Source: Babesia bigemina (lineage: Eukaryota). From it: 64,000 nt of DNA. Made by a program: the position numbers and the translations under genes. The number at the start of each line of letters is the position of its first letter. The first letter of the stretch is position 1. The notes beneath the pieces were generated by a model. That model was not told the origin of the DNA. It ran no database searches and saw only the letters and a list, made by a program, of their open reading frames with translations. The DNA is taken from contig NC_027218.1 of assembly GCF_000981445.1 (NCBI RefSeq), positions 2,108,001-2,172,000 on the forward strand. Reading direction: 5' to 3'. Positions 2,679 to 22,627 of this stretch are shown piece after piece.

Positions 2679-5600
2679 TTAGTGCGTAACACCAAGGTAA
2701 CCAATAGGGTCCTCGTCGAAGTAGTCGACGTCTTTGTAAAGTGAGAGCATCTTCCGGCCTTTCGTGAGTAAGGCCTTGACGTCGATGTGGTGAGAAGCCT
2801 TGGTGCGGATAAGGTGTGATCGTATACGCAGCACGTCCAGGCGGTACAGCATCGTGTTGGCGAAGACGAGGAATGCGAGAGACCAGAGTGCGACGATGGT
2901 GTAGATGAATGGCTCCCGGATGCCGTAGAGGAAATCGTCCATGGCGGTCATGAGTGATGCGATAGGCTTGCCATCGACAATTTCTTTCAGTTTACTCATA
3001 ACATCATAGCACTTGACTGTCGACTGCGATTTGCCCTCCGGTGGCGTGAACCCGTGAGTGTAGAGGAGGGGAAGGGCAGTGGAACACAGGTGGAGGGATG
3101 TGCACTTGGCAAAATCATGCTTCTTGAGTTCATAGTGCAGTTTTTCAAGTGACTCCCGCAGTCTGTCCGGCAGGTACACCGTCCAGCTGAGGTAGGTGTG
3201 GACAAAGCTCTGGGAGTACAGGGCGTAGGCCCGGTAGGTGATGGGCGGGCAGTGTGGTCGGCAGTTGGCAAAGTCACTGCCGCAGCCAACCAGTGTAGAC
3301 AGCGTCTTGGGATGCTCGTTGTCGTGGTTGTTATTGGAGATCATGTTGAGAGCCTCGGAGCCTCGGAGGCCACTGACAGCTTGGAGGTCGGAGGCACCAA
3401 GACAGTCCCAGTCAGGGCAGTCGGCATGTGACTTGGTGATGGCAGTGCCTAGTGAAGAAAGTGCCTTCAAAGCATACTCGTGCAGCTCATTCCCGAAATG
3501 ATGGAAGTACGACACAAGCTCCCCGGTGGTGCGCGGCGTCCGCCTGGTGAGGCAGTTGAGGTAGGACGCCAATGTCAGCAGGGGATCACTACCGCCGCAG
3601 CTGGGAGTGAGGATGGCGGAAATGACACTGCCCTGTTGCGATGTCTTAGGCAAATCCTTATCTCTGAATCCCATCCTGACACGGCTCTTGAGGCACAGGT
3701 TGCACGGGTCGAAGGGGTGAGTCTCGAAGTCGGAGTCCCAGCCGTCAGTCAGGAACGCCTGGAGGGGGGACGATGTCTTGATGTCACTGCCATATTTAGA
3801 ATCCTGCCAACCACCAAGGGATTTACCTCGTTTACACTGCGCCTTCAGGAACGCCAACTGGTGGCAGCAGGCGTAGACGTAGTCACGCAGCTGGCAGAGG
3901 AGGCAGGCTGGGTCGGGGGAATAATGAAGTTTATCATATTCTAATTTGAAGTCGATGTCAGATAGAGCATCGCCGGATTGCATACGCATTATTCCGTTCA
4001 GGACGTGTGCGGAGTAGAGACAAGCCTCGGTAAGGGTGTCGGCGATATGAGATGCGGACAAGGAGGATAGATCCCCGTTGACCTGGAGGGCATACTTAGG
4101 GTAGAATGTATCGCCGTTGAACACCATCAACAGGCCTTCGATGTGTCTCTCCATTTTGGCAATAAGTCCGTACGCATTGAGACCGACCAGCCAGAAGAGC
4201 ATGGCCTTGACGTTGGTGGGAGGCGGTAGATGGTCGGAGTCTGGTGGAAGGGGGAGGGTTGATGAGGTGGCAGAATCATGAGCGTAATTCCATGGGTTAT
4301 TGCACATGTTGGGGTTAGGATCAACGATGAGACCGTAGTTTATAACATTGTTCCATTTGGGATTATATTCAAAAATTTCATCGGACGTTTTTTTAGGGCT
4401 TGGACCATAAATTCGATAAGCTTCATGTGCGTTGTCTTCGAAATCATCCACGTTTAGTGATGGTGCCAAAGCGATATCAAAGTCACCTCCATGGAACATT
4501 TTTTTCAAATGTTCACTTTGAACAATTTCTCCAGCACGCTTTATGCTTTCCACATGTGCCTGGGTAGCATTCTTCTCCTTTTGTTCCAATTCTTCTTTAT
4601 ACACTTTCTTTTCGTCCGCTACACGTTGCCTCTGTTTCTCGTAATGGTCCTTTATACGCTGCGCTGCATCCTTACTCTTCTGCGCAAAGCTTTGCCTGTC
4701 GGTAGAGTCTACTACTTTAAATGTAATATCTGGATGCTTGAGTGAATCTGGCAATTCGCGAGGATCAGGTAATGCAGGAAGAACAGTTGTAATAGGCGGA
4801 TTCAATTGCATATGCTGAATCCTCCCCCGTCTTAATTCCTCTTCCGCATCCTTGTTGTGTTTTTTGATTTGATCCTTTTCTTTCCGCTCCAATGTTTGCA
4901 GCGCTTTCCGCTCGTCTATGTGTCGACCCAAATCATCTTGAATTTTCTCATGAAACAGCCTATCTCGTTGATCTTGCAATCGCTCCGGCAAATCATCGTC
5001 GATAGGTTTGCCCGTTATTTCGCGATACAGCAGACCAGGATACCACCACGGCCAGTGCTCACCATAGGCATCGTCGGTTGGCTGCGACCCATCTAATTGC
5101 GGCGCAGCCTCTATAAATTTCCTCTGCTCCTCTTCCTGTCTTAAGCGCGCTTCATTAGCTCTGTTGCTACGTTGCAATGTTTTCTGTATTCTATCTAAAT
5201 CCTCATCATGCTTTTTCACTCCTTTGCCCTGTTGTTTCCGCTTTTCCCACTCCGCCTTAGCCTTCTTTTCTTGTTCCGTGTTCACTGTTTCTTCATCTCG
5301 TCTAAGCTGTTCCACTTCCTCCTGCTGAGCTGTACTTTCCAACGATTTCAGAAATTTAATGCCCTCAACTTTTTTCTTTATTTTTTCCTGTAGTTCCTTA
5401 GAAGCGGTATCTGGAATTGGCTGACCATCAAATTCGGAAGGTTGATTAACGGCCATGCTACCATCGTCATGCCTACCTCTACCTTCTGCTGGCTCATAGT
5501 ACCGACGTCCCTGACCATCACGGCTACCGGGAGGCAGAGGATAAGGCCCGGGAGCAAGACGGCTGGGCTGAACTGAGGGGGTGGGATGAATTGGACGGGA

Positions 5601-8138
5601 AGGCCCGGGAGCAACAGGGCTGGTTGGAGTTGGACGGTTGGGTGGAATTTGAAATTGCGGAATTTTACGATTTGGATGTTTAGTATTACGGTCATTTAGT
5701 ATGTTTTTTACGACTGTTTTCTCATAAGCATTTGCGATTTTATTTTCTGCGTTTTCAGAGAGAGGTTTGCGATAAGACTTATTCGGCTTAGGACGACAGA
5801 ATGATGTGCCAGACATATCTACGGATTTAATTTGATTGGCAGGACACGTCGGCGAATGTTGTTTAACCAAAGCGGGATCCTGACCAACTCCCTTCCCATT
5901 ACTCCCACCAACCCCTCCAGCTCCACCGCCACCGCCACCCGAACCAGTGGTTGCCGTAGTAGCAGCGGTGGTAGAACTTGGCGATGTACCTTGGCCATTT
6001 TGTTGAGTGGTGCTAAAAGTGGACCCCTGGTCACCCGTGCCCTGACCACCGACTGGAGCAGGGACACTGGATGACGGGGGGACAGGACTGGAATCACTTG
6101 AAGGCTGAGTGGTTACATTCTGTGCAGGGGCACCAGGCTGTTGAGCTGTAGGACTACCGTCATTTGGACCTTTACTCGTACCACCTTGCTGACCAGGCAC
6201 AGAAGCAGACACCTTACCACTACCGGTACTAGGGACACCATGTGACGGAGTCCCTGAGCTTGAAATACTTGGATTCTGAGATTGCCCAGTTAATGAAGGG
6301 GCACCACTCTGCGATCCCTTACTCTGCCCACCCGGTTGACCAGGCGCAGAGGAAGGCCCCGGACCACCATTGTTACCAGAGACACTAGATGACGAAGAAC
6401 GTGGAGAGAGAGCACTTGACGATTTAGGAGGTAACGGCTGTGAAGCGCCAGCAGTATGCGAACCTTGAGCAGCACCGCCATTTGCACTCCCACCCCCGCT
6501 ACCCGGCTTACTAGAGGAGACAGGGCCTGCAGGAGTGCTGGGATCAGCTCGAGGGGGAGGGTTTGCCGGCGGTTGAGGTGGAGTATGTTGAGATGTAACA
6601 GTATTTTGAGACGAAGAAGATGTTGTAGAGCCGGTACTAGTAGGCCCTTGTGTGCCTTTACCACCTTGAGGCCCTGCAGGGCCTGGCGCTCCTTTAACAC
6701 CGGTACTCGGAGATGGAGAAGATGTGGTAGCTGATGAACTTGAAGGATTTCTTCCACTTTGAGCTTTGGTTTGATTTTGATTTCTCTCAGCTTTCTTGCC
6801 CTGGTTCTGTGCTCCCTCCACTTTCTTGGCCTGGTTCTGTGCTCCCTCAGATTTCTGGCTCTGATTTGGAGTTACTTTGGATTGACTTACAACAGGCTTC
6901 GCCGCCTCGGTTTTGACAGCGGGCTTTGTTGACGTGGATTCTCGAGCAGATTTTCTCTCCGGCGCAACTGCCTTGGGTGCTTCGGAGGAAGTGACAGGTG
7001 GGGGGGCAAGATTGGGACACGATGCTGTATACTCACCTTCTAAGATTGCTTTAAGCTGTATCAGCTTACTTTCAAGCTCGTTGAATCTCTGTAAATTAAG
7101 AGTCCACTGCTGCGGCAAGCCCCTTTTCAAAACGTTCGGTTTACTGCCGTCGAAAATGAACCCACGGGGATAAAGTTTATCGTTGGCAAATGATTGCAGT
7201 TCAGTCTTCTGCGAATTGATTGACTGAGGTATCATTTCACTCAATTCGCCTGCGGCTTTTGGCAAGTTTGCTCTAAACCATGTAGCGGATGTCTTGGCAA
7301 AATTGACTGCGTGTGTAGGCGTAATCCCTCTACCGGTAACAGAAAATCCTGCTCCCGTCAGCGTATCGATGTGTTCCTTCAGAAGTTGACAATGGTTTTT
7401 TAAATCTTGCCAACATATCTTTTTTCCAAGGCCCTTCTCTAAAGCCGCTTTAAAAGCCCCACCGTCAGCATCCTTCTCTCCGGCAACCAACACGCAAAAT
7501 ACATTAACCAAAGATACAGTGTTTCCAGTGTTGACGGCATGCCACGGTTTATTCGAAATTGTCAATGTAACATTTCTAAAATGATCATGCACAGGATTTT
7601 TTGTTCTAGTGTCAACTTCCTTATTCAAAATCTTTCTCAGTTCGTTTGCTACTGCACGTCCCTCTATATTATTAACCTCATGGACACTGAACCCACCACG
7701 AAGAATGTTATTTCCGGTAGTTAGAAAATTGCAAAGCTCGCCTCTCTGCAGCGACTGTGAAGCCCAATCTCCACCGCCAACATTGCTAAACGCATCATCC
7801 ACGTGATACTGCAAGTAATATAATGCAGCAAGAAACTTGGGGATGCATCCTAAAAGCGCGTCAAGAATTTGAGTTTTATCCCTTGTGTTAACATAATTAC
7901 TCGGTGTAGTAATTTTATTAGATAACAATTTAGTACGTAGAGCGGACACATTATTTAGGAAATTAACATATTGAACGTGTAACCCCCGCTTAAAACTTGG
8001 CATTTTTGGAAAAGAAGGCGTCAACCTTTGTACTAACTCAGTTACCACATTACTTTTTTGACCTTTTGGGCCGTTCAACCAGTCCAAGAACTCAAAGCAC
8101 TCCTTAAGAGTGTCCAACTTGACTCCATGCGTATCCAT
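2679..8138 (-). CDS. Babesia VESA-related variant-antigen-like family protein (copy 1), about 1819 aa: N-terminal globular domain, Ser/Pro/Gly-rich linker, coiled coil, Cys-rich conserved C-terminal domain, C-terminal TM
   Basis: Single long ORF with ATG at 8138 (MDTHGVKLDTLKECFEFLDWL). The C-terminus PFIYTIVALWSLAFLVFANTMLYRLDVLRIRSHL resembles the VESA1-type TM and tail. Paralogous to 11767-21767 and 62831-64000. Confidence 0.85.
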   Translation of the reverse strand: MDTHGVKLDTLKECFEFLDWLNGPKGQKSNVVTELVQRLTPSFPKMPSFKRGLHVQYVNFLNNVSALRTKLLSNKITTPSNYVNTRDKTQILDALLGCIPKFLAALYYLQYHVDDAFSNVGGGDWASQSLQRGELCNFLTTGNNILRGGFSVHEVNNIEGRAVANELRKILNKEVDTRTKNPVHDHFRNVTLTISNKPWHAVNTGNTVSLVNVFCVLVAGEKDADGGAFKAALEKGLGKKICWQDLKNHCQLLKEHIDTLTGAGFSVTGRGITPTHAVNFAKTSATWFRANLPKAAGELSEMIPQSINSQKTELQSFANDKLYPRGFIFDGSKPNVLKRGLPQQWTLNLQRFNELESKLIQLKAILEGEYTASCPNLAPPPVTSSEAPKAVAPERKSARESTSTKPAVKTEAAKPVVSQSKVTPNQSQKSEGAQNQAKKVEGAQNQGKKAERNQNQTKAQSGRNPSSSSATTSSPSPSTGVKGAPGPAGPQGGKGTQGPTSTGSTTSSSSQNTVTSQHTPPQPPANPPPRADPSTPAGPVSSSKPGSGGGSANGGAAQGSHTAGASQPLPPKSSSALSPRSSSSSVSGNNGGPGPSSAPGQPGGQSKGSQSGAPSLTGQSQNPSISSSGTPSHGVPSTGSGKVSASVPGQQGGTSKGPNDGSPTAQQPGAPAQNVTTQPSSDSSPVPPSSSVPAPVGGQGTGDQGSTFSTTQQNGQGTSPSSTTAATTATTGSGGGGGGAGGVGGSNGKGVGQDPALVKQHSPTCPANQIKSVDMSGTSFCRPKPNKSYRKPLSENAENKIANAYEKTVVKNILNDRNTKHPNRKIPQFQIPPNRPTPTSPVAPGPSRPIHPTPSVQPSRLAPGPYPLPPGSRDGQGRRYYEPAEGRGRHDDGSMAVNQPSEFDGQPIPDTASKELQEKIKKKVEGIKFLKSLESTAQQEEVEQLRRDEETVNTEQEKKAKAEWEKRKQQGKGVKKHDEDLDRIQKTLQRSNRANEARLRQEEEQRKFIEAAPQLDGSQPTDDAYGEHWPWWYPGLLYREITGKPIDDDLPERLQDQRDRLFHEKIQDDLGRHIDERKALQTLERKEKDQIKKHNKDAEEELRRGRIQHMQLNPPITTVLPALPDPRELPDSLKHPDITFKVVDSTDRQSFAQKSKDAAQRIKDHYEKQRQRVADEKKVYKEELEQKEKNATQAHVESIKRAGEIVQSEHLKKMFHGGDFDIALAPSLNVDDFEDNAHEAYRIYGPSPKKTSDEIFEYNPKWNNVINYGLIVDPNPNMCNNPWNYAHDSATSSTLPLPPDSDHLPPPTNVKAMLFWLVGLNAYGLIAKMERHIEGLLMVFNGDTFYPKYALQVNGDLSSLSASHIADTLTEACLYSAHVLNGIMRMQSGDALSDIDFKLEYDKLHYSPDPACLLCQLRDYVYACCHQLAFLKAQCKRGKSLGGWQDSKYGSDIKTSSPLQAFLTDGWDSDFETHPFDPCNLCLKSRVRMGFRDKDLPKTSQQGSVISAILTPSCGGSDPLLTLASYLNCLTRRTPRTTGELVSYFHHFGNELHEYALKALSSLGTAITKSHADCPDWDCLGASDLQAVSGLRGSEALNMISNNNHDNEHPKTLSTLVGCGSDFANCRPHCPPITYRAYALYSQSFVHTYLSWTVYLPDRLRESLEKLHYELKKHDFAKCTSLHLCSTALPLLYTHGFTPPEGKSQSTVKCYDVMSKLKEIVDGKPIASLMTAMDDFLYGIREPFIYTIVALWSLAFLVFANTMLYRLDVLRIRSHLIRTKASHHIDVKALLTKGRKMLSLYKDVDYFDEDPIGYLGVTH
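6772..6872 (-). repeat. About 3 degenerate 30-nt coding repeats (NQSQKSEGAQ NQAKKVEGAQ NQGKKAERNQ)
   Basis: Shares GAGGGAGCACAGAACCAGG with the 12985-13521 array. Confidence 0.85.
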
Positions 8139-8278
8139 CCTTTCCCCAACCAATCATACACTGGCCAACTTATATAAAACGCCACGGCAAGTGGCCATAC
8201 GGTGTTAGCCAGGAAACACTAAAGGGGTCAGAGCTCTAAGTTGACGCCCCTTACAAATTACCCTATCCAATCCATTTA

Positions 8279-8590
8279 GTGCACTAGGTGAAAAGGCTAC
8301 AAAGCGCCAAGCTGAGTGACAAAAGTATGTCATGACACAAAAACGGAGCGCGATCAGTTAGGACCCGCAGCCAATCACTTGCCCACTTCGCCCTCGTAGA
8401 CAACATGAAAGACTGAAACGATACCACCATCCCACCTACCTGAGAAGGGAAGGCGGCAGGTCTATGTATTTGGCAAGATTGTATCGTGGCTGGCATGAAC
8501 GGCTGGAGCACGGAGCACTCCATGAGGGTTCCGGGCGGAATATAGGATGCCTACCCTCACCCCGCATTGTCACGCCTCTGCAGCGCCTCA
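8279..8590 (-). promoter_or_regulatory. Conserved upstream/5'-UTR block of copy 1, inverted homologue of 11305-11605
   Basis: Reverse-complement matches: 8428-8441 = 11469-11482 (14/14), 8487-8510 vs 11398-11421 (21/24), 8279-8304 vs 11580-11605. Regulatory function is inferred. Confidence 0.6.
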
Positions 8591-11304
8591 CATCGGCGTT
8601 TCGCGGACATCAGGCACTCACGATGCAGCGTGCCTCTGTCGTTTGGATAGACACCAGTGCCTCATTTTAGCATTACCCCAATTACCACCGGAGATTGCGA
8701 ACATTACCCCACTTTGCCCTGGCCTAACGAGGTGCAGATTATAAATTGCTGCATCAATCGATGCACGAGGTTTATGCTTTGCAATTCGATATCTATGCGT
8801 AATATTGCCACAGCGACAACCTCGCCTGCCGTTCCCCCTCACCCACCTCCCAGCAGCATTGCACTGTAATACAGATCGCACTGCCCACCTCAGCTGACGA
8901 CCCAGCTCACTCATTAAGTAGACGGTCTACATGCCACAGACTCGTATTCAATACATTAGTGATGTCTAGACGAAATCACTATTGCTGCTAACTCTTCACA
9001 TCCCGACCACATTGCTGTCTCACCCCTAATTGAGCTGAGGGGCATAGAGAGTGTTTCACTGCCTTTCGCCACTCACCCTATTTTCCAAATCTTGGTCATC
9101 ATCATCTGATTCTGAGCTTCTCACTATGAAGCATTGTCTGATATCCTCCTACCATACCATCTGTCTGTGAACTAGTGGCTTAGTCCGATGGTGCCGAGGA
9201 TGCAACGCTTTGAAATTGTTGGAATGCGTCACTGCGACGTTACATATCATTTGAGTATGCCCATTGTATATACAATGATCGGATAGCGCTACTTTTTAAG
9301 GATATACCGCCGGTCGGCTGACGTGGCTAGACAGTTACTGCCGGTAATTGGTAAAGAAAAGCAGACTACTGAAACTCATAGCTAGACTTCACCAAGTGTT
9401 CATTGTTATGTGTTAGGTGCATTGTCGAAATTTCAGTTTGTGAGTAAATGAGCTAACCACTGTATCCCATCTTCTCACTTTAGAAGTGCAAAATGTAGAG
9501 CAAAAGCGTGATGGTACGTAAATAGATCTCACCTTATAACTACGCTAACTGCAAAACTACAGCACTCATACACGACTTAGATAACAGCAGACAAAGCGGC
9601 CGAATCAGCACCAGCATTTACCGCATTCTGCCATAAGCTAATGCCACCATTAAAGAAAAACCAACAGCTCGACCAACACGAACTATGACAATTAAATTGC
9701 CTAATTGCAATACGAGTTACCAAATGTGACGTGCTCATTTCTTGGCGTAATAGTTCTCGATTTGGATGGTGGACAGTACAGCGCCATTGACGGTCATGCA
9801 GTGGCACTCTGCCCTACCATGAGCTACCTCTCTGCAACTCAAGACATAAAACCAACAGGACATAATACAGGTGCAGCTACAGAGGAATAGTATCACTAGT
9901 CTGGAAATGAAAACGAAAAACAAAGACAATCTGGTGAAGCTGGAGACATGCAAGATGCGGATTTACTAGGAGCTGATGAAGGTCGGAGAGAGGGCTTTCA
10001 ACTATCATACGATTCTAAGAGATACCCTATGTGATAGAGTACGTGACTCCCGTATATTATTACTACCTTGTGAATGGCCCTTGTAGCCGAATAAGGTGGA
10101 TGCCAACACATGGTACCAGTAACGGTCGGCAACGAACCGACGTGGATTTCGCATCGCATACCAAAAGGGTGCACGTAATGAGTTACTAAAGAGTGCAGAA
10201 AGATGTGCCAAATAAACGTCAGGCGTCGGACACTTTACAACTTGAAACAGGCTTAACCTCATGTAATGACGGATCTTGCCATGCCGGCTGCATTTTGTGT
10301 CACTACAGCTCTTTGGAAGCTATGCGCGTGGCACTAATCCTTGCCAATGGCGTGAGATGCGACTACGGTTTGCTCTGTTTTTCAGTGGCTATCTGTAATG
10401 CAAAAAATTTGAAGGCGTCACATGTTTGTTTGTATACGAGCTCACAATTTAGAAAACCTGCAACTCCCATAACATCCAACATTAAATAACATGTAGTATC
10501 TAGCAGTGAGCTTCAGTAGCTTCAGTAATGTTGATGACCAATGCCTGGCAGCCCATGCCTAGCCACGCTAGACACGGGGGCAGGTCATACCAAGATATCT
10601 TAAAACGATGATCATATAAACAGCACGCATGATAATATGCTTTGCTGAGGTGCAGTGACTCAAATTAGTAATTGCAAAGCGTAAGCTTCTAGCTAATACC
10701 GGACTCAGTAACAGCCCACATTATGATGGGATGGGTAAAAACAAAAGCTCGAATCCCTCATGTTGCCTTGCTAGCCAGTAATAATATGACAGATATGTTG
10801 GAAAAAGCGCAAGTCAGAGAAGTCGGTGAAAGGCGTTCAGGAAATCTCATCTGAAACGGATAATCCATCTGCTCATGGCTGGGATATTAGACCTTAGATA
10901 ACACTACGTCGTTTTGTGCTTAAATGACGACATCATTACGATAATAACCGTACATGTGGTTGAGCGCCAATTATTAGAGCTAAGTGGTTAATCGAAGGCG
11001 AAGCGTTGGTAGGTGGATGTCTCCAAGACCACAACAGGTGGGAGCTGAGTAAAGCGTGACGCATTCAAGGACATAGCAGTGTGGAGTTCGAGACTTGGCG
11101 CTGTTTCAAAGGTAACTAATTTGATGCATTACTCTAAGGTTGAATTTACAACATCAAAAACGTAATGTAGACATGAATGTGGGGTAGGTTTATCAGTCTC
11201 CATATGACCTACTGGGCGTGATGCTTATGTGGTGTAAAACGCGCTGTTGTGATATCTCGGTGACGTATTTGGTAGCGGATGCTTGGGTGCTCCCCTAGTG
11301 CCTG

Positions 11305-11605
11305 GAGGAGACGCCTTAGCGGCGCCACAATGCTGGGTCAGAGGGGCTGTACACTATTCCACTCGGAGAACTCATGGGGAATCCCGTCTGCCAGCATTGC
11401 TCCAGCCTCTTATGCCAGCCAATATATGGTATTACCGTATTTATGGGCTCGTAGCCTTGCTTCCCCTTAGGTAGGTGGGATGCTTACAAGATAATTGTCC
11501 TGTCTAATGGGTTTTGAGAGGGCGAGATGAGTCTTTCACTGTTTTAATATTATGAGTAATGTAATCACTGGGCAAATCACTTTGTAGCATTTTCCACCTA
11601 GCGCA
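11305..11605 (+). promoter_or_regulatory. Conserved upstream/5'-UTR block of copy 2, including a candidate 5'-UTR intron donor AG|GTAGGT at 11471
   Basis: Collinear inverted homology to 8279-8590. Confidence 0.6.
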
Positions 11606-12984
11606 CATGTCTGGCCGTCTAGTATTTTTAGACGGGGCCACCTTAGAGGTATGATCAGACGACTGCTTCCTAGTTCACATAGTCGTGGACACCAGCCGTA
11701 AAGATTTGTAAGCGCATGTTGGCGAATGTGTATTAGCATTTTGTGTTTCTGCTATTTGTATCCAAAATGGTGTCGGCTAAGAAATTCTATCTCACTAGCC
11801 TTAGGGAGTGTTTCATATTTTTCGATTGGTTAAACACCCAAAAGAAGAATATACACGCCCAAATTGCCCAGGATCTGTATAAACGTATAAATAAGTATAA
11901 TAAGGCGGTCGAATCAAACAGTATTAAAGCATCGCTGTCCACTTTCCTCTCGAACGTAGATAAGTTTTATAGAATATTGGTAAGTGACGGCATCCCTGAA
12001 AAATTGCTTCGAACAACAAACTCAATTAATAGCGACGCAACAACGGAGGAAATTGTGGACGCTCTTCTCGAGTGTATTCCTAAATTCCTCGCCGCGATGT
12101 ACTATCTTTGGTACGATGTGAATGCCACTTTCGAGGAGCTTGGCGGCGGTGGTTGGAAGTTAAATTATCCAGGGGCCTTATATGGTAGTTACTATAGTTC
12201 AAGCGGAGGCGATCTCGACAATTACCTCCATGCGAAGAACGGCAGCAACTACGGTGGCATGATACCCGGAGGATTCAACCCCACCGAAGTGAGGTATGGC
12301 TATTGGTACAGTGGCTACCGTCAGGGATATCTGATGGAAGATGATATTAGAATAATTCTGGACAAAAAAAATGACCAGTGTTTTCGTAACGTATTTCTTA
12401 CTACGGTTGGCGTCGCAGGCAAGCAGAAGGAAAACGTTGCAAATGTTCTTGCATTGGTGGGAACGTTTTGCGACATTGTGGAAAGGGACAAAGGTGCCGT
12501 GAAGAGCGCTTTGGAAAAGCAACTTAAGGAAATGAATGGAAAATGCCTGGATTGGTCTGCCTTACAATCTCATTGCAAAGAGCTAAAGAAATCCCAAATA
12601 CACAGATTGTTCGCCAGTCAACGCTTTGCGCATACTGGCCAGTCACTAGAATCTAGTGATTCTACAAAGGAAGAAATTGCGAAAGATGCGGCAAAGTGGT
12701 TGAGAGTGAATTTGTTGGAAGTTAAGAGCCATTTGAATAAAATTGATACAAAAGACAAGGTCATCGACAATCCCGATAAGAAGCACCTTGGCGCATATTT
12801 CACCAACAATCTTTTCCCATACGGTTTCTTTTTCGATGACAACCATTTCAGAAGGATGATTAAAGATAGGAAGACCTTGATGCAAAATTGGCGTAGTGTA
12901 ATCAGTAAGTTTGTTGCTAATGGTGAAGGTTTAGAAAAGTTAAAAACACTTTTGGAAGGTTACAATTGTCCAGAAGATACTTAT

Positions 12985-13521
12985 AAGAAATCCGAGGGAG
13001 CACAGAACCAGGGCAAGAAATCCGAGGGAGCACAGAACCAGGGCAAGAAATCCGAGGGAGCACAGAACCAGGGCAAGAAAGCGGAGGGAGCACAGAACCA
13101 GGGCAAGAAGGCTGAGGGAGCACAGAACCAGGGCAAGAAGGCTGAGGGAGCACAGAACCAGGGCAAGAAATCCGAGGGAGCACAGAACCAGGGCAAGAAA
13201 TCCGAGGGAGCACAGAACCAGGGCAAGAAAGCGGAGGGAGCACAGAACCAGGGCAAGAAGGCTGAGGGAGCACAGAACCAGGGCAAGAAGGCTGAGGGAG
13301 CACAGAACCAGGGCAAGAAAGCGGAGGGAGCACAGAACCAGGGCAAGAAAGCGGAGGGAGCACAGAACCAGGGCAAGAAGGCTGAGGGAGCACAGAACCA
13401 GGGCAAGAAGGCTGAGGGAGCACAGAACCAGGGCAAGAAGGCTGAGGGAGCACAGAACCAGGGCAAGAAATCCGAGGGAGCACAGAACCAGGGCAAGAAA
13501 GCGGAGGGCACTCCAAATCAG
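12985..13521 (+). repeat. Coding tandem repeat, 17 complete 30-nt units plus 1 partial, encoding KK[S/A]EGAQNQG and ending KKAEGTPNQ
   Basis: Unit AAG-AA[A/G]-[TCC/GCG/GCT]-GAGGGAGCACAGAACCAGGGC, counted directly from the sequence. Confidence 0.98.
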
Positions 13522-14893
13522 CAAACCGCTCAAAATAGTCGAACGACTTCAAGTTCACTGGGTCCGCATTCAGATTCATCGACAGTGTCCGGTGCTGATG
13601 TAGCTAAAGGTCAACCAGGGGCTAAAGGTGATCAAGGCGCGAAAGGGCCTCCTGATACAGGGACTACAAAATCTTCTACACCTCAACGTGCTGGTAAGCC
13701 GCAACATCCTCCGCCCCAACCGCCGCCAGCGCCTCCCCCCAGTACTCCCGCTGCCCCTAGCCCCGCTGGTCCGACAAGTGACGGGGGTGGAAGGCCAAAT
13801 GACAGTGGTGCTCGAAGTCAGAAGCCTGTTGCCTCTAAACCCCCTGCTTCTCCTCCGTCTACAAGTGGTACAAGTCCAGCCCCTCCGTCACTTGCTGTCC
13901 CTGGTTCCAGTGGTGGCACGGGGTCTACTTCTGTGCCTGTTAAACCAGGTGTTAAGGGGCAGGGTTCAATGGTCAGTGTTTCTCCAGCGCAACAACCTGG
14001 TGCGTCTTCACAGAATGTTATCACTCAGTCTCCAACTGCTCAATCTCCTGGCCCTCGGTCATCTGGTGTCTCTGCTCCCGATGGTGGTCAGAACTTGGGT
14101 AGCTCGGCGGGTTCTGCTGTCCCTGGTCCAACAGGTGATCAAGGTAAACCGCAGAATTCCACTGCCGCTATTACTACGCCATCCACTGGCTCGGGCGCTG
14201 GTTCGGGCGGCGGTGGAGGGGATGGCGGTAGTAATGGGAAGGGGACTGGTAATTCTCAAACTCAGATAAATTGCCCTCAGGGCCAGTCACTTATGAGTCT
14301 ATGGCCCAATGGCTCCAAGTTCTGCGTCCCTACAAATGACTTTAATGACCATGAAAAAACCTATACCGTATGGGACAATGTCAAAAAATCGCATGATAAG
14401 GACATTCAAAAGACTGTAGAGAGAAATCGACAGAAACAAAATTCACAATTGCGATATCCTCCCAGACGCCAAACAAGGCCTGACAATCTTAATGCCGTAC
14501 CACCAACTCATTCTAACAGTCTCCACCCTGCTCAACACCAGCCCATTGATCCACTAAGAAGGGATGACGGGCGGGGAGGCACAGGCGCTCCGCATATTCC
14601 GTCTATTGACGTTTCCGTTGGTGGAGAAGCAATTCAGCCGACGAAATCAAATCATTTCGCTGCGAAGGACTTCACTAAATTGCCGGGTCTCCGTGGCCAG
14701 GCTATGCGTGATTTGGATTATGAGCAGGATCAAGTGTACAACGAGTTGTTATTTGACGAGATAGCAGCACAAACGAAATTGCAGAAAAATTTGGAAAAAG
14801 AAAAATTGGAGAGATCGGAGGAAGAGAATATAAGGGCCCATAAATATCAAGTAGAAGGCATCGAACGGCAATTAGAAGAGCACAAAAAACAAG

Positions 14894-14901
14894 TAGCAGA
14901 T
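14894..14901 (+). repeat. Left target-site duplication TAGCAGAT
   Basis: Identical to 19219-19226; the flanking bases differ on both sides. Confidence 0.9.
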
Positions 14902-17900
14902 GTTAAATTAAGTTATCTCATCTTATAGTGTGCTATGTGGCTACGTGCCTAGGGCCGGTTTTCGTGTTTGCGGGGCTAACGCCTCACGCTGAAACCGGTT
15001 GCGGGATCCACGCCGGTCCATTGCCGGACGTCACTGGTGCCATCCATGCGGGCATCCATCCAGTTTGGGCTTGAGGGTCTTCTACGGAATCGTAGTCTTC
15101 TTTCGGCTTCATATCCCTCATCACTATTTTATGTGTTTCTTGGATCACTACCCTTTGTATGTGGGCTTCCATGCGATCCGATATGCCCAGGTCCCGTCTG
15201 TACTTGCTGTGCTCCTTTGTCACTATTCCCTCCCACGTCATAACGTAGGGGATAACCCTGATCTTGGTGTGCTGGTTAAACTGTCGCGCCTTGAGGTCCT
15301 CAATAAGGTCTTCATACTTCTGCTTCTTGAACTTCTCCGTATCCACTAGGTTGTCTTGATTGGTGATTCCTATCTCCACGATGGTTATGGTGTTCCTCCG
15401 CCGATCCGCCAGGATGATGTCTGGCCTGTTGTATTCCTTAGTCTTCTGAGTCTTGACCGTCTTGTCGTACGCGATCCATCCGTATTTTCCATGTACTTCA
15501 CTCTCGATCTTGTGGGCGTCTATCTTCTCCTTGGGTAGTCCTATTTGCCTCCCGAGTACTGAGTGGACCCGTTTTGCTACCTCGTTGTGCCTCTTCGTAT
15601 ATTCTAGGTGTAGTAGTTTCTGGCACTTCGTCGCGAGGTGATCCACGTTCTTGCCGTTGTTGCATCTTGTGCATTTCTTGGACGAAGACATCCATTGCAG
15701 ATTCCTATCCTGGACTTCCGCTACGTTCGCTTCTTCTTCCGGAGTGAGTATTCCACACGTCAGGTACAAGGACGACGCCTCAATGTCCAGCTTGGGGTCC
15801 TCACGCTTGGCATACAGAACCTTATGAGTTGATTTTACGTGCATTCTGTTGTACAGCCATTTGTTTTGGGCCACCCTGAGGTCCCTGAGGCTCTTGTCCG
15901 TAGTGTCCTCCATTCCGAATTCCATTCCATATCTTCCTTCCAGGTGCATCTTGATGTGAGATATGTGCGCGTATGTGTCGCGAAAATGCTGCATGATCGC
16001 AGCTCTCCTGGTTGACGTCACCTCGTCTGCTGAAAGCGTCAACCACAGTCGTAGCAGCATGGCTTCCGCTCTAAATACCATGCTGTGGAGCCCTCTCCCC
16101 ATCTCTTTCCGGGGGAGGTAGAGCCTCTGTGTGTTCGCCCACTTCTTGTGTCCGTGCTTCGCGTTAATTATTCTCCGTACTGCCAGGTCGATCTTGTCGA
16201 AATGCGTGATGTCCATGGGGATCACGCCGATGTAGTAGTTGATGACGCTGAGGGCGTACTGGTTGATGGCCATCGAGAGGTTTTTCCCCGACAGCTTTGA
16301 CGCAGCCAGTAGCTCCGTTCTCCTGCATATCTCCTGTAGTATTATGTCGAACATTCCGTCGCTTGTCAGTGAGTTTGAAGTCTCTGTGACTCCCAAGTAC
16401 TTGTACGTTTCCGGGCCTTCCATCTGCTTGGCGATGCTGGCGCACGCCTCCGTGTTGGTTGCCGACTTGTCGCGGTTGATCCTGAGTCCTATGTCGTTGA
16501 AGAACTTCTCCACTTCTCGGCCCATTCCTCTCATCGTACTTTCCTCGTGGGCGAAGAACTTGAGGTCGTCAATATAGAGAAAGTGGTTTGTGGCGAATAT
16601 CCTGCCGCCGGTCACGCTTAACTCCACCTTGGGGAAGATGCGAGTCAGGTGCCTGCTCAGCGGGTCCAAGCACAGCACGAAGAGAAGGGGCGATAGGCTG
16701 TCGCCTTGGAGAATGCCCCTCTCCACTTTCTTGTGCATGATTGTGTTCTTGTTCCACCGTATCTCTATATTCCACCTCTTGATCGTCTGCTTGATGAAGT
16801 TTGATAACCACCCTGGTAGGTTAAGGTTGTCGATAACCCTTGCCAGGTACGCGTGGTCGATTGAGTCGTACGCCTTCATGACGTCGACCCACGTTGCAAG
16901 TAACTTCCCCTTGTGCTTCTCGTTGAGCGCGATGTTCGCTAACGCGTGCTCCTTTGCACCCTGTACGTTGCTCCTCGTGCCCATCTGGTTCTCGGACCGT
17001 AGTCCCCTGCCATCGACTTCTCGCTTAAGCGTCTCCGTTGCACAGCGGGTAGTTAGCTTGTATAGGTTGGACATGCATGTGATAGGCCTGTACTGTGCGG
17101 CGGACTTTGGTTTCTTGTTCTTCGGTAGTAGGTACGTGATCCCACAGTAGAACCAGTCGTCCTGCACTTTGCCTTGCTGGCATGCCTCCTCTACTAGCCT
17201 GTAAATGACTCTGTGAAGGGACGTGAGCCATTTAATGTAGTAGTTGTAGATCCCATCCGCACCGGGCGACTTCCAGTCTCGCAATTTCTTGACGATCGTG
17301 ACGAATTCCTCGTATGTGGGAAAGCCTGCCTTGTTCTCTGCCGGTGGTCTTTCGACCAGATATCCTTCACCGTTGTGCGGTGCGTTTGGCTTCACCCACA
17401 TTTGCGCCCAGTACTCTATCATCATCCCCTCGTTTATCGCCGACTCGTCCGCGTCCTGCTTGTTCTCCAGTGTCCTGTAGAAGTGTCCCGTGTAGAGCTC
17501 GAACATGCGGTTGTCGTTGTACAACTCCTTCTTGAACTTGGCGTTCTTGAGTTTGTCCTGCTCCTTTTGGAGCTCCTCTTGAGTCCTGCTGATCACGTAT
17601 GACAGTTCCTGCGGCTTGTCCGCGATCATGTTGTACTTGTCCATTTGGCGATAAACGCGTTTCCTATCCTCCTTCTCCAGGGGGACCTTCTGCTTGTATT
17701 TCAGAAGTAATGCTCCTATCTCCTCCAGCTCCTTGATCCTCCTCTCAGCTGCCTCCTTCTTTCCCGAGGACGACGATGGTTTTGCGCTGTACTTGTCGTA
17801 GCAGTCCTGTGCCGTTTGATACAAGATGGCTAGCATCCCCATGTCAGTGACTGGGTTGTGCTTCACGTAGTTGTGGACCACTAGATCCAGCGACCTTATC

Positions 17901-19218
17901 GCCGTGAAGTCGAGGGAGTCCATGGTGTGTCTTTTGTTCTTTACTGTCCTAATCACACCAGGCTCCCTCAACCTCTGTGCCATGATCCGGTCGAAATCCT
18001 CCTGCAGGGCGTTGTATGAGTCGACGTCGTGCAGCGATGCTATTTCTCCAACGTCCGTCGGTTGGCTCCGCGCTGCTTTGGCGACTACCTGTCTTGCCAT
18101 CTGCTCCACCTCCTTGTGGGTCTTGTGGAATTCGAAATGCTCGTTGGCATATTCCGCGAGGACTTTCCATCCTCCTCGTGGCATCCTCTGATACTTCGTC
18201 ACTACTGCCTTGTAGACGTCCGGTACCCAATGACACCATGGTCCATCGATCTGACGCATGACACAGTGCAGGAACTGTAACTTGGCATTCAGCCTAGCGT
18301 AGTTCGGCGGCATTTGTGGCGTGTTCCCGGCCCGTTCAGCCTGCGGGGCGTGCCCTTCGGGTGCCCTCGGCAACGCAGCCGTCTCAGTGAGCGCCACCTC
18401 ACTGGCGGTGCCCGGTGCTATACTGTTGTTTGATTCTCTCACAGGCCCGACTTGCTCAGGTTCCTCTTCGTCCACGTCCATAAAGTCATCCGACGATATG
18501 GAATACACGGTCGGAGAGCGGCAGCCACCGTTTCCGACAACCTCCCCTGCCGGTGGCTGCAGGGTAGACAGTGTCTGCACACACACGGGTGCGCGTTCCG
18601 AGGAACTCGGCCCGGCGTTGCAAACCACGACAGGCGGCGTTTGAGCCGTGTTTCCTGTCTTTTTGGCCTTCCGGTTGTTACCCTTTTGGCCCTGGGGACC
18701 GCCGTTCCGCGCTTTGTTTCCAGCGCCCTTCACAGCCGGAGTGGTTCCGGGCTGGTGTCGTTTCCGGCTTGCCTGCGGGATTGGCCGGCTTTCGCCGCCA
18801 CGGCCGGCCCCCTTCGAATTTGTGGGTTTACCTTTAGGGCCCTGAACACCGCTTTGTACCGGTTTTCTGGATTCATGCCGCCTTTCGGGTTGCCGACACT
18901 CTCGGCGCCCCACGGTGGCAAGCGGAGCATCGATGTCCATCCCATCGGGGACGTCCACGTCAATAACCATGAGGTCTCCGTCCTCATCGATTTGACTGCT
19001 CAGCTGCACTTCTTGTGAGCTCTCCATTGGTACCTTGTTCGTCTATCCAGCGCGCCTGTGTGGCCGCCTTTCGCCTCGCGATGTTGCCGCTTTAATTCCG
19101 CACTTTTGGCCTTCAATACACCCCCCAGTGACATCGGAAAAATTTCCTTTCTGTGATAAACCCGAGAAAACACGTTTCTCAAAGTTTCCCCCAAAATCAC
19201 AGAAGATTCCAACTCCCC
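14902..19218 (-). mobile_element. Full-length non-LTR retrotransposon with restriction-like endonuclease (R4/Dong/EhLINE-like), 4317 bp
   Basis: Bounded by an 8-bp direct repeat. 191-nt 5' UTR, single 1347-aa ORF, 82-nt 3' UTR. Excision restores the host reading frame. Confidence 0.93.
14984..19027 (-). CDS. Retrotransposon polyprotein: low-complexity N-terminus, reverse transcriptase, CCHC zinc knuckle, PD-(D/E)xK-type RLE endonuclease
   Basis: RT motifs KSPGADGI, LLPK...YRPITCMSNLYK, DVMKAYDSIDH, RGILQGDSLSPLLF, YIDD, GLRINRDKS, YKYLG. RLYLPRKEMGRGL. CTRC-x7-H-x4-C. RHN. RPDIILAD...IVEIGI...KKQKY. Confidence 0.96.
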   Translation of the reverse strand: MESSQEVQLSSQIDEDGDLMVIDVDVPDGMDIDAPLATVGRRECRQPERRHESRKPVQSGVQGPKGKPTNSKGAGRGGESRPIPQASRKRHQPGTTPAVKGAGNKARNGGPQGQKGNNRKAKKTGNTAQTPPVVVCNAGPSSSERAPVCVQTLSTLQPPAGEVVGNGGCRSPTVYSISSDDFMDVDEEEPEQVGPVRESNNSIAPGTASEVALTETAALPRAPEGHAPQAERAGNTPQMPPNYARLNAKLQFLHCVMRQIDGPWCHWVPDVYKAVVTKYQRMPRGGWKVLAEYANEHFEFHKTHKEVEQMARQVVAKAARSQPTDVGEIASLHDVDSYNALQEDFDRIMAQRLREPGVIRTVKNKRHTMDSLDFTAIRSLDLVVHNYVKHNPVTDMGMLAILYQTAQDCYDKYSAKPSSSSGKKEAAERRIKELEEIGALLLKYKQKVPLEKEDRKRVYRQMDKYNMIADKPQELSYVISRTQEELQKEQDKLKNAKFKKELYNDNRMFELYTGHFYRTLENKQDADESAINEGMMIEYWAQMWVKPNAPHNGEGYLVERPPAENKAGFPTYEEFVTIVKKLRDWKSPGADGIYNYYIKWLTSLHRVIYRLVEEACQQGKVQDDWFYCGITYLLPKNKKPKSAAQYRPITCMSNLYKLTTRCATETLKREVDGRGLRSENQMGTRSNVQGAKEHALANIALNEKHKGKLLATWVDVMKAYDSIDHAYLARVIDNLNLPGWLSNFIKQTIKRWNIEIRWNKNTIMHKKVERGILQGDSLSPLLFVLCLDPLSRHLTRIFPKVELSVTGGRIFATNHFLYIDDLKFFAHEESTMRGMGREVEKFFNDIGLRINRDKSATNTEACASIAKQMEGPETYKYLGVTETSNSLTSDGMFDIILQEICRRTELLAASKLSGKNLSMAINQYALSVINYYIGVIPMDITHFDKIDLAVRRIINAKHGHKKWANTQRLYLPRKEMGRGLHSMVFRAEAMLLRLWLTLSADEVTSTRRAAIMQHFRDTYAHISHIKMHLEGRYGMEFGMEDTTDKSLRDLRVAQNKWLYNRMHVKSTHKVLYAKREDPKLDIEASSLYLTCGILTPEEEANVAEVQDRNLQWMSSSKKCTRCNNGKNVDHLATKCQKLLHLEYTKRHNEVAKRVHSVLGRQIGLPKEKIDAHKIESEVHGKYGWIAYDKTVKTQKTKEYNRPDIILADRRRNTITIVEIGITNQDNLVDTEKFKKQKYEDLIEDLKARQFNQHTKIRVIPYVMTWEGIVTKEHSKYRRDLGISDRMEAHIQRVVIQETHKIVMRDMKPKEDYDSVEDPQAQTGWMPAWMAPVTSGNGPAWIPQPVSA

Positions 19219-19226
19219 TAGCAGAT
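19219..19226 (+). repeat. Right target-site duplication TAGCAGAT
   Basis: Identical to 14894-14901. Confidence 0.9.
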
Positions 19227-21767
19227 CATAAAGATTTTGTGGAAGCTTTGCAAAATACCGATTGGGTGGGAAAAGCAGTCGATCACTTTTCAGGGCCATT
19301 TGTATCTACATATATACCTTTTGATGGCAATCCGGTTCCGGATCAAATCAAAGACGCCCATGATAAACTTATGGAACGTGAATTTGAGCAGAAAACGCAA
19401 GATGCTATTTACAATCAAACGGTAAAGGAATTGAAACTAGCAGAGCGCCAGAAGAAAGATGCGGAACGTGAGGAACGAGATGTAAAACACATTGATGATG
19501 AGCTTAAGTATATAGATCACATAGAAAAACAGAAATACGACAACCAGGTAGCGGAAGTATCAGCGCTTGATGGGAATACAGTTGTGCTTCCAAAGACATA
19601 TGGCATACACGACTTAGACCCTTCCCTGCTATTTTCCGGTACTGCAGCTCCTAGATTATCTCACGATCCAGCGGTATATAGACGTATCTATGCGAGTGCT
19701 GCGGACCATGTTGCAAACATCGTAAAACAAAAGGTAGATGAGCAAGACATGATTCAGAATACTAAAACACGTCTTGGAATGTTTAATGGCGGTGATGTCG
19801 ATATTACATACCCACTGCCATATATGGCTCGTAACCCTGATTATTTAGAGCTTCAAATTGACACCCCTAAGCGCGCAGTCCAAGACACCTTACATGACAT
19901 GGATCTAGATGACCTTTATTCCAACGCTGACAATATCTTGAGAGATGAGTACATAACTTCCGATATGACGTATGGTAAAGACAAAGGCTTTTCAAGCGTC
20001 CCTCAGACTAATTTCGATTTGGACTTTGCACCCGGACGTATTGGAGTTGAAGGCTATGGAGATCCCGGGATGCCGCGTGACCCTTCCAGGGAGGTGTCTG
20101 AGCGCTTAGTTCCGGCATTCGCTACTCCAGACAGCTGCCAAAATCCCTGGTACGTTACCCCTTCATCCACCTCTCCCACACCTCCAACCCCCGCACCTCT
20201 CCCAGTCACCGATCATCTGCCGCCCCCCAAAACCGTACGGGAAATGCTCTACTGGTTTGTTGGATTGAATACACAAGGGTATGTTGGATTGATTACAGAC
20301 TATATCTATAGCATTTTGAAGGATGCTAACAAAAATGTCTCCAAGATCTCAGATGTTATCGAAGTCACCGGGGACCCTACCAACCTGGATGCTTCCCATG
20401 TCGCCGACAAACTGACCGAGGCATGTCTCTACGGGGCAAGCGTACTTTACAGGCTCAAATATCGTGATGATTACAAGGCTTATAATAATTTAAAATTCGA
20501 ATCGGAATATAGTAAGTTCCGTTATGCCTCCGACCCCGCCGGTCTCCTCTGCCAGCTGCGTGACTACGTCTACGCCTGCCACCACCAGTTGGCATTCCTG
20601 AAGGCGCAGTGTAAGCGGGATAAACTAAGTGGTGGGTGGAAACATTACCATTATGGCAGTGACATCAAGACATCGTCCCCCCTCCAGGCGTTCCTGACCG
20701 ACGGCTGGGACTCCACCTTCAAGACTCACCTCTTCGACCCGTGCAACCTGTGCCTTAAGAGTCGTGTCAGGATGGGATTCAGAGATAAGGATTTGCCTAA
20801 GACATCGCAACAGGGCAGTGTCATTTCCACCATCCTCACTCCCAGCTGCGGCGGTAGTGATCCCCTGCTGACATTGGCGTCCTACCTCAACTGCCTCACC
20901 AGGCGGACGCCGCGCACCACCGGGGAGCTTGTGTCGTACTTCCATCATTTCGGGAATGAGCTGCACGAGTATGCTTTGAAGGCACTTTCTTCACTAGGCA
21001 CTGCCATCACCAAGTCACATGCCGACTGCCCTGACTGGGACTGTCTTGGTGCCTCCGACCTCCAAGCTGTCAGTGGCCTCCGAGGCTCCGAGGCTCTCAA
21101 CATGATCTCCAATAACAACCACGACAACGAGCATCCCAAGACGCTGTCTACACTGGTTGGCTGCGGCAGTGACCCTGACAACTGCCCTCCGCATTGCTCG
21201 CCCATCACGTATCGGGCCTACGCCCTGTACTCCCAGAGCTTCGCGCACACCTACCTCAGCTGGACGGTGTATCTGCCGGACCTACTGTGGGAGTCACTCA
21301 AGAGACTACATTATGATCTCAAGAAGCATGTTAGCACCAAGTGTTCATCCCTTTACTTGTGTTCCACTGCCCTGCCCCTCCTCTACACTCACGGGATCAC
21401 GCCACCGGAGGGCAAATCGCAGTCGACAGTCAAGTGCTATGATGTTATGAGTAAACTGAAAGAAATTGTCGATGGCAAGCCTATCGCATCACTCATGACC
21501 GCCATGGACAATTTCCTCTACGGCATCCGGGAGCCGTTCATCTTCACTCTCGTGGCACTCTGGTCTCTCGCATTCCTCGTCTTCGCCAACACGATGCTGT
21601 ACCGCCTGGACGTGCTGCGTATACGATCACACCTTATCCGCACCAAAGCCTCCCACCACATCGATGTCAAGGCCCTGCTCACGAAAGGCCGGAAGATGCT
21701 CTCACTTTACAAAGACGTCGACTACTTCGACGAGGACCCTATTGGTTACCTTGGTGTTACGCACTAA
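19227..21767 (+). pseudogene. VESA-related family gene copy 2, 3' part (still an open frame; contains the conserved C-terminal domain and TM)
   Basis: HKDFVEALQNTDW... continues in frame from ...HKKQVAD at 14901. The C-terminal ~400 aa is near-identical to copy 1. Confidence 0.88.
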
Positions 21768-22627
21768 ATGTAGCATGTATGTTGTCACTAGTCACCGTGA
21801 GATGATATCCGCTGATCATCTAACGATATTTGTTGGGGCAGCATGTACGGTAAGGTGGTGGCCCGTGGACTTACGGAACTGGGACGTTGACCTTAACGTC
21901 GTATAATAGACACAGCCATGTAGCCACGTGACACCCAATGTCAACTTAATTTTGCAAATGCGCATTATCAATGCTATATTAATGTCTACCATATCATTTA
22001 AGCTGACTAAAATGCAATATTGAATTTTTTATAGACAGTGGCCATTCGATGCGACTACGGATAGATACACAGGCTACACCGCACTTTCATGGAAAATTGT
22101 TCCTATTCAGCTCACAGAAGATATACAATCCCATTTTGAGGTATCGCCAACAACATTTTAAAGTAGCAACAGATGTAATAATTGCGACTGAGTGATGGAT
22201 TTTTGCCATATAAAATTAACGTGATGTCCTAAATGGAGGTCGGCGCACCAGACACCACATCCTAGAAAGACGGTTCATAAGTAACCGTTGTTCGCATCGT
22301 ACCCATACGTTGGACCCTTGCTGTTACTTTGATTGCGCATTTCAAACTGCATCTGTGTTACTGGATCAATGTGCGCCTGCTCATTAAGAGGGCCCTTGCG
22401 CGTCAACTGAGTCTCTTCATTTTCTTTTGGCTACACAACCTTAGTATTTACGACCTACAACTAACTCTATACGCGTGTTTTAGGTGATGTGCCTCATATT
22501 CGGTGAGCTCATCACAACTGCACGGAATGCCTACAGCCAAACTCAGGTTTCACTGCATGGTCACCTACCTGTTGCCGGATTGTGCATCTCGGGTTTCATG
22601 GGAAGGACAGAAGAGGAACCTCCCATT

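What the first reader, a model, noticed from the sequence alone, without database searches (positions are those of the whole stretch)
11767..21767. The retrotransposon knocks out a variant-antigen-like gene, and removing it restores a perfect 1891-aa frame
Seen: joining 11767-14901 to 19227-21767 gives ...EEHKKQVAD|HKDFVEALQ... in frame. The product is 1045+846 = 1891 aa, similar in size and layout to the 1819-aa paralogue at 2679-8138. Neither half has acquired a stop. The ORF track's 1061-aa and 910-aa ORFs are therefore one gene. Inference: the insertion is very recent. It would yield a truncated product lacking the TM anchor (stop at 14928) or a silent donor for gene conversion. RLE elements are often sequence-specific, so this family may use the redundant antigen family as a safe haven and help remodel the antigen repertoire.
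Basis: partly seen in the sequence, partly recalled or inferred. Interest (0 to 1): 0.78.

Follow-up and report, generated by a model that had tools for sequence, protein, structure and literature searches.

The report
Live retrotransposon in Babesia antigen genes
An intact, young retrotransposon splits a surface-antigen gene of the cattle parasite Babesia bigemina, a matching gene copy in another sample lacks it, and its sister copies cluster at antigen genes with no shared target sequence, so it is likely still jumping and likely survives mostly where spare antigen genes make it harmless.

Summary
Observation confirmed. A 4,317-bp non-LTR retrotransposon (14902-19218, minus strand, 8-bp target duplication, one intact 1,347-aa ORF) interrupts a ves1a-family variant-antigen gene of Babesia bigemina. 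Both gene pieces are open and in phase, and a contig from another run carries the empty site. The element is R2-like (RT, CCHC knuckle, restriction-like endonuclease; TM 0.66-0.70 to R2 structures). It has about seven near-identical full-length copies, and other samples carry it at other sites. All 9 other chromosomal copies lie within two gene models of a ves-family gene, 6 of them adjacent or fused (p at most 0.008). But four young insertion flanks share no motif, so the proposed consensus target is not supported, and the link is weak in B. ovata (1 of 5). The best reading is an active element with no fixed target sequence that survives in dispensable antigen loci; active steering is not excluded. 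LINE-like elements in Babesia are already reported. I found no report of their R2-like anatomy, insertion polymorphism, ves clustering, or closeness to microsporidian elements.

The parts
11767..14901 (+). 5' piece of an interrupted ves1a-family (VESA1a, annotated 'ribosome-binding protein 1') gene, 1,045 codons; reads 8 codons into the element and stops at 14928
   Evidence: family label
12985..13508 (+). 17.5 copies of a 30-nt unit (10-aa repeat) inside the 5' piece
14894..14901 (+). left copy of the 8-bp target-site duplication
14902..19218 (-). full-length RLE-type non-LTR retrotransposon, 4,317 bp; 191-nt 5' UTR, 82-nt 3' UTR, AT-rich end, no poly(A)
   Evidence: the same span (14902-19217) with other flanks in run X1
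14984..19027 (-). single ORF, 1,347 aa: low-complexity N-terminus, conserved helical domain (about aa 248-320), RT (aa 640-881, YIDD at 818), CCHC knuckle (aa 1119-1135), RLE (RPD..E at 1201-1218, KKQKY at 1234)
19219..19226 (+). right copy of the 8-bp target-site duplication
19227..21767 (+). 3' piece of the interrupted ves1a gene, 846 codons, with the conserved Cys-rich VESA1 C-terminal domain and the transmembrane segment
2679..8138 (-). intact head-to-head ves1a paralogue (1,819 aa); shares 344-nt and 184-nt identical tracts with the 3' piece

Best explanation
An intact R2-like retrotransposon splits a ves1a antigen gene of Babesia bigemina; it likely inserted recently by target-primed reverse transcription, and its family, which shows no fixed target sequence, likely piles up at antigen loci mainly because insertions there are tolerated. 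Shown: anatomy, target duplication, an empty site in another run, other sites in other runs, and clustering at ves loci. Inferred: (1) the RLE nicks DNA and the RT copies the element RNA from the nick, by structural likeness to R2; (2) in a haploid, gene-dense parasite (recalled) most other insertions are purged, whereas one of about 74 ves1a copies, a family found unexpressed in one cultured isolate, can be lost at little cost; (3) the broken locus would give at most an anchorless 1,053-aa product and probably acts as a silent partner in gene conversion.
For: Element: RVT_1 E 2.6e-30. A 70-sequence profile aligns from RT through the RLE to R2 proteins (E 8e-64) but to LINE-1 only over the RT part. 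The AF2 model (pLDDT 90.4) has R2 structures as its top 7 matches, TM 0.55-0.70, top four 0.66-0.70. Youth and activity: four full-length proteins at 99.8-100% identity on 7 contig placements including the window's. X1 holds the whole element with 12 differences in 4,316 nt between other flanks. X4 holds the empty site. 14 of 20 listed in-ORF variant places are third-codon positions, p 0.0009. Two RT-like B. bigemina genes are 1,931- and 128-fold higher in blood stage than in kinetes (PMC9806345; family identity assumed). Clustering: of 9 other chromosomal loci, 6 are adjacent to or fused with a ves1 gene and 9 of 9 have a ves-module gene within two accession numbers; upper-bound p 0.008 and 2.6e-4. 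Tolerance rather than sequence choice: four young flanks share no motif; sense and antisense insertions both occur; one copy lies between two 6-Cys genes; older copies (86-87% identity) also sit by ves genes; T. equi has 13 related proteins. VESA1A expression was not detected in isolate PR (PMC4066756).
Against: The enrichment test cannot separate survival from steering: the null is all genes, not dispensable DNA. In B. ovata, 3 of the 5 loci examined lie among core or kinase genes. That shows core regions can hold insertions, so 9 of 9 near ves in B. bigemina may need more than survival. Adjacency was read from accession numbers, not coordinates, and for most loci only one neighbour was seen. 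No laid run (0 of 5) bridges the filled junction, so the filled allele rests on the window's assembly alone. The X4 empty site is about 94% identical and could be a close paralogue. Some unplaced contigs may duplicate chromosomal copies. Transposition itself was not observed.
Confidence: 0.6

Rival explanations
1. The element is actively steered to ves regions without a fixed sequence, through silent chromatin or through the nicks and breaks that gene conversion makes at antigen loci, possibly by its conserved N-terminal helical domain.
For: 9 of 9 other chromosomal copies lie near ves-module genes. 14 of 25 RT gene models are on unplaced contigs that are rich in ves1b-module genes. The locus shows recent conversion tracts. 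A B. caballi model fuses the RT with VESA1_N sequence. The N-terminal domain is conserved across relatives.
Against: The B. ovata link is weak (1 of 5 next to ves1a). T. equi carries the family, and has no ves genes as far as I recall. The unplaced-contig excess is confounded, because repeats break assemblies. The N-terminal fold could not be assigned.
Confidence: 0.28
2. The truncated or element-bearing gene is used by the parasite, as an anchorless ves2-like secreted antigen or as a source of antisense silencing.
For: ves2 genes are described as shortened 5' derivatives of ves1 (PMC4066756). The left piece is an open 1,053-aa frame without an anchor. The element runs antisense to the gene.
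Against: Babesia bigemina ves2 genes form one clade related to ves1b, not ves1a. This insertion appears absent in another sample. No expression data exist for this locus.
Confidence: 0.05
3. Sequence-specific insertion at a conserved site, like R2 in rDNA or ingi in trypanosome RHS genes.
For: Most RLE clades are target-specific (PMC4640811).
Against: Four young 3' flanks are unrelated, and the duplications are 8 and 11 bp with different sequences. Host positions differ: near residue 333 of a ves1a in P0128 against about 1,045 here.
Confidence: 0.04
4. Assembly artefact, or two separate genes flanking a repeat.
For: No laid run bridges the filled junction.
Against: An exact 8-bp duplication, phase-compatible pieces, 89 of 89 relatives with both ends in one protein, and a natural empty site.
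Confidence: 0.03

Closest known systems
R2-group (RLE) non-LTR retrotransposons: R2Bm, R2Tg; clades CRE, R2, R4, NeSL, HERO (PMC4640811, passages)
   Same: One ORF with RT, CCHC knuckle and C-terminal PD-(D/E)xK-type endonuclease; R2 is the best structural match; short target duplication.
   Different: No fixed target sequence seen (HERO-like behaviour); no N-terminal zinc-finger pattern (scattered cysteines only); only 15-16% identity to R2 in the structural alignment; clade not determined.
'LINE-like' TEs of B. bigemina, B. ovata, B. divergens and T. equi (PMC9141347; part 1 of 5 and passages); RT gene clusters in PMC5660447 Table S2 and PMC10463595 (passages)
   Same: Very probably the same family: same four species in my searches, plus B. 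caballi.
   Different: The main text of PMC9141347 has 0 hits for 'ves', 'target site', 'insertion' and 'microspor'; it calls three B. divergens copies 'LINE R2' by MGEScan only. Its supplements were not seen.
Trypanosome ingi/RIME and L1Tc in RHS genes and surface-antigen clusters (PMC7563717, PMC7966520; passages)
   Same: A non-LTR element splits members of a redundant parasite gene family into two halves and is enriched in antigen clusters.
   Different: RHS has one conserved hot spot; here positions and sequences vary. Ingi and L1Tc use an apurinic-type endonuclease (recalled).
Microsporidian non-LTR elements (Vairimorpha, Hamiltosporidium, Pancytospora, Nucleospora, Astathelohania, Dictyocoela records)
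   Same: Closest named non-piroplasm relatives, about 31-56% identity against 26-28% for insect and shrimp records; one 100/100 branch with the piroplasm elements; shared N-terminal motif.
   Different: Nesting inside microsporidia is not shown (p-AU 0.13); direction of any transfer is unknown.
BbigVes1a / VESA1a (PMC4066756 section 22 and passages; PMC5660447 Table S2)
   Same: Conserved C-terminal domain with one TM segment and a low-complexity middle; relatives carry the module-2 name that the table labels ves1a.
   Different: This copy is interrupted; Pfam VESA1_N does not match it.

Membership tests
RLE-type (R2 group) non-LTR retrotransposon | Non-LTR RT domain with intact catalytic motif | tested here: met
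   RVT_1 640-881, YIDD and QGDSLSP
RLE-type (R2 group) non-LTR retrotransposon | C-terminal CCHC knuckle followed by restriction-like endonuclease | tested here: met
   motifs, invariant C/H/C, RH and P columns, profile alignment to R2 through the RLE, fold
RLE-type (R2 group) non-LTR retrotransposon | Single ORF, no LTRs, target-site duplication | tested here: met
   a second duplication of 11 bp in X1/X3
R2 clade proper | Specific insertion in 28S rDNA | tested here: not met
   target is a protein-coding gene; no Rfam rRNA match in 8100-22600
R2 clade proper | N-terminal zinc fingers plus Myb domain | tested here: inconclusive
   no zinc-finger cysteine pattern; a confident helical domain exists but fold searches were dominated by other parts
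R4, NeSL or HERO clade | RT phylogeny with named clade references | not tested
   no Repbase references among the fetched proteins; the tree has only unnamed-clade relatives
Target-specific RLE elements | Shared sequence at insertion sites | tested here: not met
   4 young 3' flanks share no motif by eye; small sample
BbigVes1a | Conserved VESA1 C-terminal domain with one TM segment | tested here: met
   80% identity over 547 aa to the paralogue; hydropathy; 89 relatives
BbigVes1a | Falls in the ves1a cluster rather than ves1b | tested here: met
   by name: hits are 'ribosome binding protein' records, the module labelled ves1a; no tree of ves genes was built
BbigVes1a | Display on the infected erythrocyte and antigenic switching | not testable with these tools
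   no expression data for this locus

The most novel reading that the evidence does not exclude
Piroplasms took a retrotransposon from microsporidia by horizontal transfer. In B. bigemina it is alive and steered to variant-antigen loci, where it breaks genes, makes anchorless forms and supplies homology for recombination. Its reverse transcriptase is the missing enzyme behind the long-proposed retrocopy origin of ves1-alpha.
Probability: 0.15. Interest if true: 0.87.

Novelty: new variant of a known kind. Interest (0 to 1): 0.62.

Why it matters
Apicomplexan genomes are described as nearly free of transposable elements (PMC9141347). This is evidence for an intact, recently mobile retrotransposon in a major cattle parasite, and it lands in the family used for antigenic variation. 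It gives a testable extra source of ves gene turnover. It offers a candidate enzyme for the proposed retrotranscription origin of ves1-alpha (discussed in PMC4066756), and presence/absence markers for isolates. It also explains several mis-annotated fusion genes, and adds an RLE element without a fixed target that is close to microsporidian elements.

Tried and rejected
No whole genome was held, so flanks of all copies could not be collected directly; a published cluster table and sequencing runs stood in. No RNA holder was listed; X5 is only guessed to be RNA and is not used as evidence of expression. Three 30-nt flanks from other runs, translated and scanned against 94 ves1a-type sequences, scored no better than shuffles (24, 55 and 54 of 60 shuffles reached them): inconclusive, with low power and almost no ves1b or ves2 in the set. 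UTR folds were unremarkable (z -0.79 and -0.32). Rfam gave one sub-threshold hit. The N-terminal domain looked Myb-like by eye, but the Atlas, Pfam and fold searches did not assign it. No further ves fusions appeared among 19 shorter piroplasm RT models. In the first tree a prefix error put Bombyx in the Babesia group; the tree cited is (31 of 120 rows, LG+G4). Piroplasm monophyly was not rejected (p-AU 0.64; the constrained tree scored higher), and microsporidian monophyly was not rejected, so two independent gains and nesting are both unproven. The Pentapeptide_2 hit comes from the 10-aa repeat. The representative-protein search never ran. Earlier scan notes returned nothing. Two papers recalled as analogues (trypanosome RHS 2002; Giardia Gil elements) were not held. 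The T. equi genome paper does not mention these elements.
Full report
Setting. The window is eukaryotic and gene-dense, with YTH, eIF3e, kinase, ion-channel, WD40 and ABC genes. The element's protein is 99.8-100% identical to proteins named Babesia bigemina, so I treat that as the species. No whole genome was available.

An 8-bp direct repeat at 14894 and 19219, exactly 8 bp long, brackets 4,317 bp with one minus-strand ORF of 1,347 aa. The host pieces are 1,045 and 846 codons, each open and each a whole number of codons. The left piece aligns to residues 8-989 of the paralogue at 2679-8138 (32% in the N-terminal part). The right piece aligns to residues 1276-1819 at 80%. All 89 full-length relatives found with the right piece also match the left N-terminus. 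The break lies in the variable middle, where 0 of 89 match the last 120 aa of the left piece and 6 of 89 match the first 120 aa of the right piece. Most telling, one X4 contig (381 nt, depth 4.3) crosses from the left flank to the right flank with one copy of the 8-mer. It differs at 18 of 325 nt, so it is a diverged allele or a close paralogue. None of the 5 laid runs bridges the filled junction.

The host gene. The relatives are annotated 'ribosome binding protein'. In PMC5660447 Table S2 (parts 1, 2 and 8 and row searches seen) that name belongs to module 2, labelled ves1a. PMC4066756 (section 22 part 1, passages, supplement legends) counts 74 ves1a, 80 ves1b, 16 ves1ba and 116 ves2 genes. 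It found no VESA1A expression in isolate PR. The 5' piece stops at 14928 and lacks the transmembrane segment, which lies in the 3' piece.

The element. It has RT motifs YIDD and QGDSLSP, a C-x2-C-x8-H-x4-C knuckle at 1119, and RPD...E and KKQKY endonuclease motifs, conserved in 70 relatives. The profile aligns to R2 proteins from RT through the endonuclease (E 8e-64) and to LINE-1 only over the RT part. The AlphaFold model of residues 410-1347 (pLDDT 90.4) has R2 structures as its top seven matches. A helical domain near residues 248-320 is conserved, also in a microsporidian element, and folds confidently, but could not be assigned. The 3' end is AT-rich without poly(A); in X1/X3 the terminal unit is partly repeated.

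It is young and mobile. Four full-length proteins at 99.8-100% lie on 7 contig placements, the window's included; some unplaced contigs may be redundant. Run X1 holds the whole element (12 differences in 4,316 nt) with flanks unlike the window's, and its two ends share an 11-mer, a second target duplication. X4 has a further young 3' flank. Of the 23 element places shown in the variant table (430 further rows were not shown), 20 are in the ORF and 14 of those are third positions (p 0.0009), as expected of a lineage kept by function. PMC9806345 (passages) lists two RT-like genes far higher in blood stage than in kinetes; I could not confirm that they are this family.

Where other copies sit. 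Table S2 puts 25 B. bigemina and 12 B. ovata genes in the RT module. The 11 chromosomal B. bigemina models make 10 loci. One shows the window's own gene order and was dropped. Of the other 9, four are next to a ves1b gene and two are annotated as fusions with ves1ba or ves1a-type sequence. Two have a ves-module gene two accessions away, and one lies between two 6-Cys-module genes with a ves1a two away. Taking ves genes as at most 8% of about 4,430 chromosomal models, 6 of 9 adjacent has p at most 0.008 and 9 of 9 within two has p at most 2.6e-4. The 14 unplaced models were not counted. A B. caballi model fuses the RT to VESA1_N sequence. Against a strict link: of 5 B. ovata loci examined (of about 8), one is next to ves1a, one next to a 6-Cys gene and three are among core or kinase genes; a sixth is next to an MFS-family gene. 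T. equi has 13 related proteins.

No target consensus. The four young 3' flanks (window, two in X1/X3, one in X4) share no motif by eye and only the window's has the 8-mer. Insertions are sense and antisense and at different positions. Whether the three outside flanks are ves DNA could not be told.

Mechanism. Shown: anatomy, duplication, empty site, clustering. Inferred: nick and primed reverse transcription as in R2; survival in redundant, mostly silent antigen loci (0.6); or steering by chromatin or conversion breaks (0.28). The locus does exchange sequence: the 3' piece shares perfect tracts of 344 and 184 nt with its inverted neighbour amid 82-94% flanks, but direction and timing relative to the insertion are unknown. 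That the element drives repertoire change is not shown.

Origin. Relatives are B. ovata 78%, B. caballi 53%, B. divergens 52% and T. equi 38%. Outside piroplasms, named hits above 30% are nearly all microsporidia, against 26-28% for insect and shrimp records. Two Octopus records and two bacterial MAG records in this range may be contaminants (inference). Babesia elements form one clade (100/99). They join T. equi, microsporidian and unnamed elements on a 100/100 branch apart from the animal rows. One piroplasm origin is not rejected and nesting in microsporidia is not shown. Horizontal transfer is a lead, in line with transfers reported for microsporidian TEs (PMC4202319, passages).

What is known. 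PMC9141347 reports LINE-like TEs covering 0.97% of the B. bigemina genome and discusses gain and loss, with no mention of ves genes, target sites or microsporidia in the main text. PMC10463595 and PMC5660447 note RT gene clusters only. Searches listed no paper on insertion polymorphism or ves association of these elements. The library lacks most subscription papers, and the supplements of PMC9141347 and the B. ovata GFF were not seen. The closest analogue is ingi/L1Tc in trypanosome RHS genes and antigen clusters, which differs in having a fixed hot spot.

Verdict. A real, recent insertion of an intact RLE retrotransposon in a ves1a gene, from a family concentrated at antigen loci but without a fixed target sequence. 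New variant of a known kind; interest 0.62.

Noticed in passing
window 2679-8138 and 11767 onward: Two ves1a genes head to head, 3.6 kb apart, recalling the divergent ves pairs of B. bovis; no ves1a remnant in the gap.
   Followed up: partly
window 20830-21173 and 21678-21861 against 2565-3950: Perfect 344-nt and 184-nt tracts shared with the inverted paralogue, the second running past the stop codon: recent segmental gene conversion.
   Followed up: partly
window 62831-64000 and 61781-62050: A third ves1a-type gene runs off the window end, next to a 75-bp tandem array.
   Followed up: no
window 14912-14992, runs X2, X4, X5: Older, roughly 88-92% identical 3' fragments of the element, some with flanks shared between runs: an older, more widely fixed wave of insertions.
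   Followed up: no
proteins P0128, P0130, P0004, P0073: Public gene models that fuse the element ORF to ves or Myb-annotated host sequence; probably mis-annotated insertions, one counted as a ves1ba gene.
   Followed up: partly
proteins P0029, P0049, P0240, P0288: Records labelled as bacterial MAGs or Octopus carry this microsporidian-type element; possible contamination of those assemblies.
   Followed up: no
window 55716-60359: Intronless two-domain ABC transporter, 1,547 aa, beside the third ves gene.
   Followed up: no
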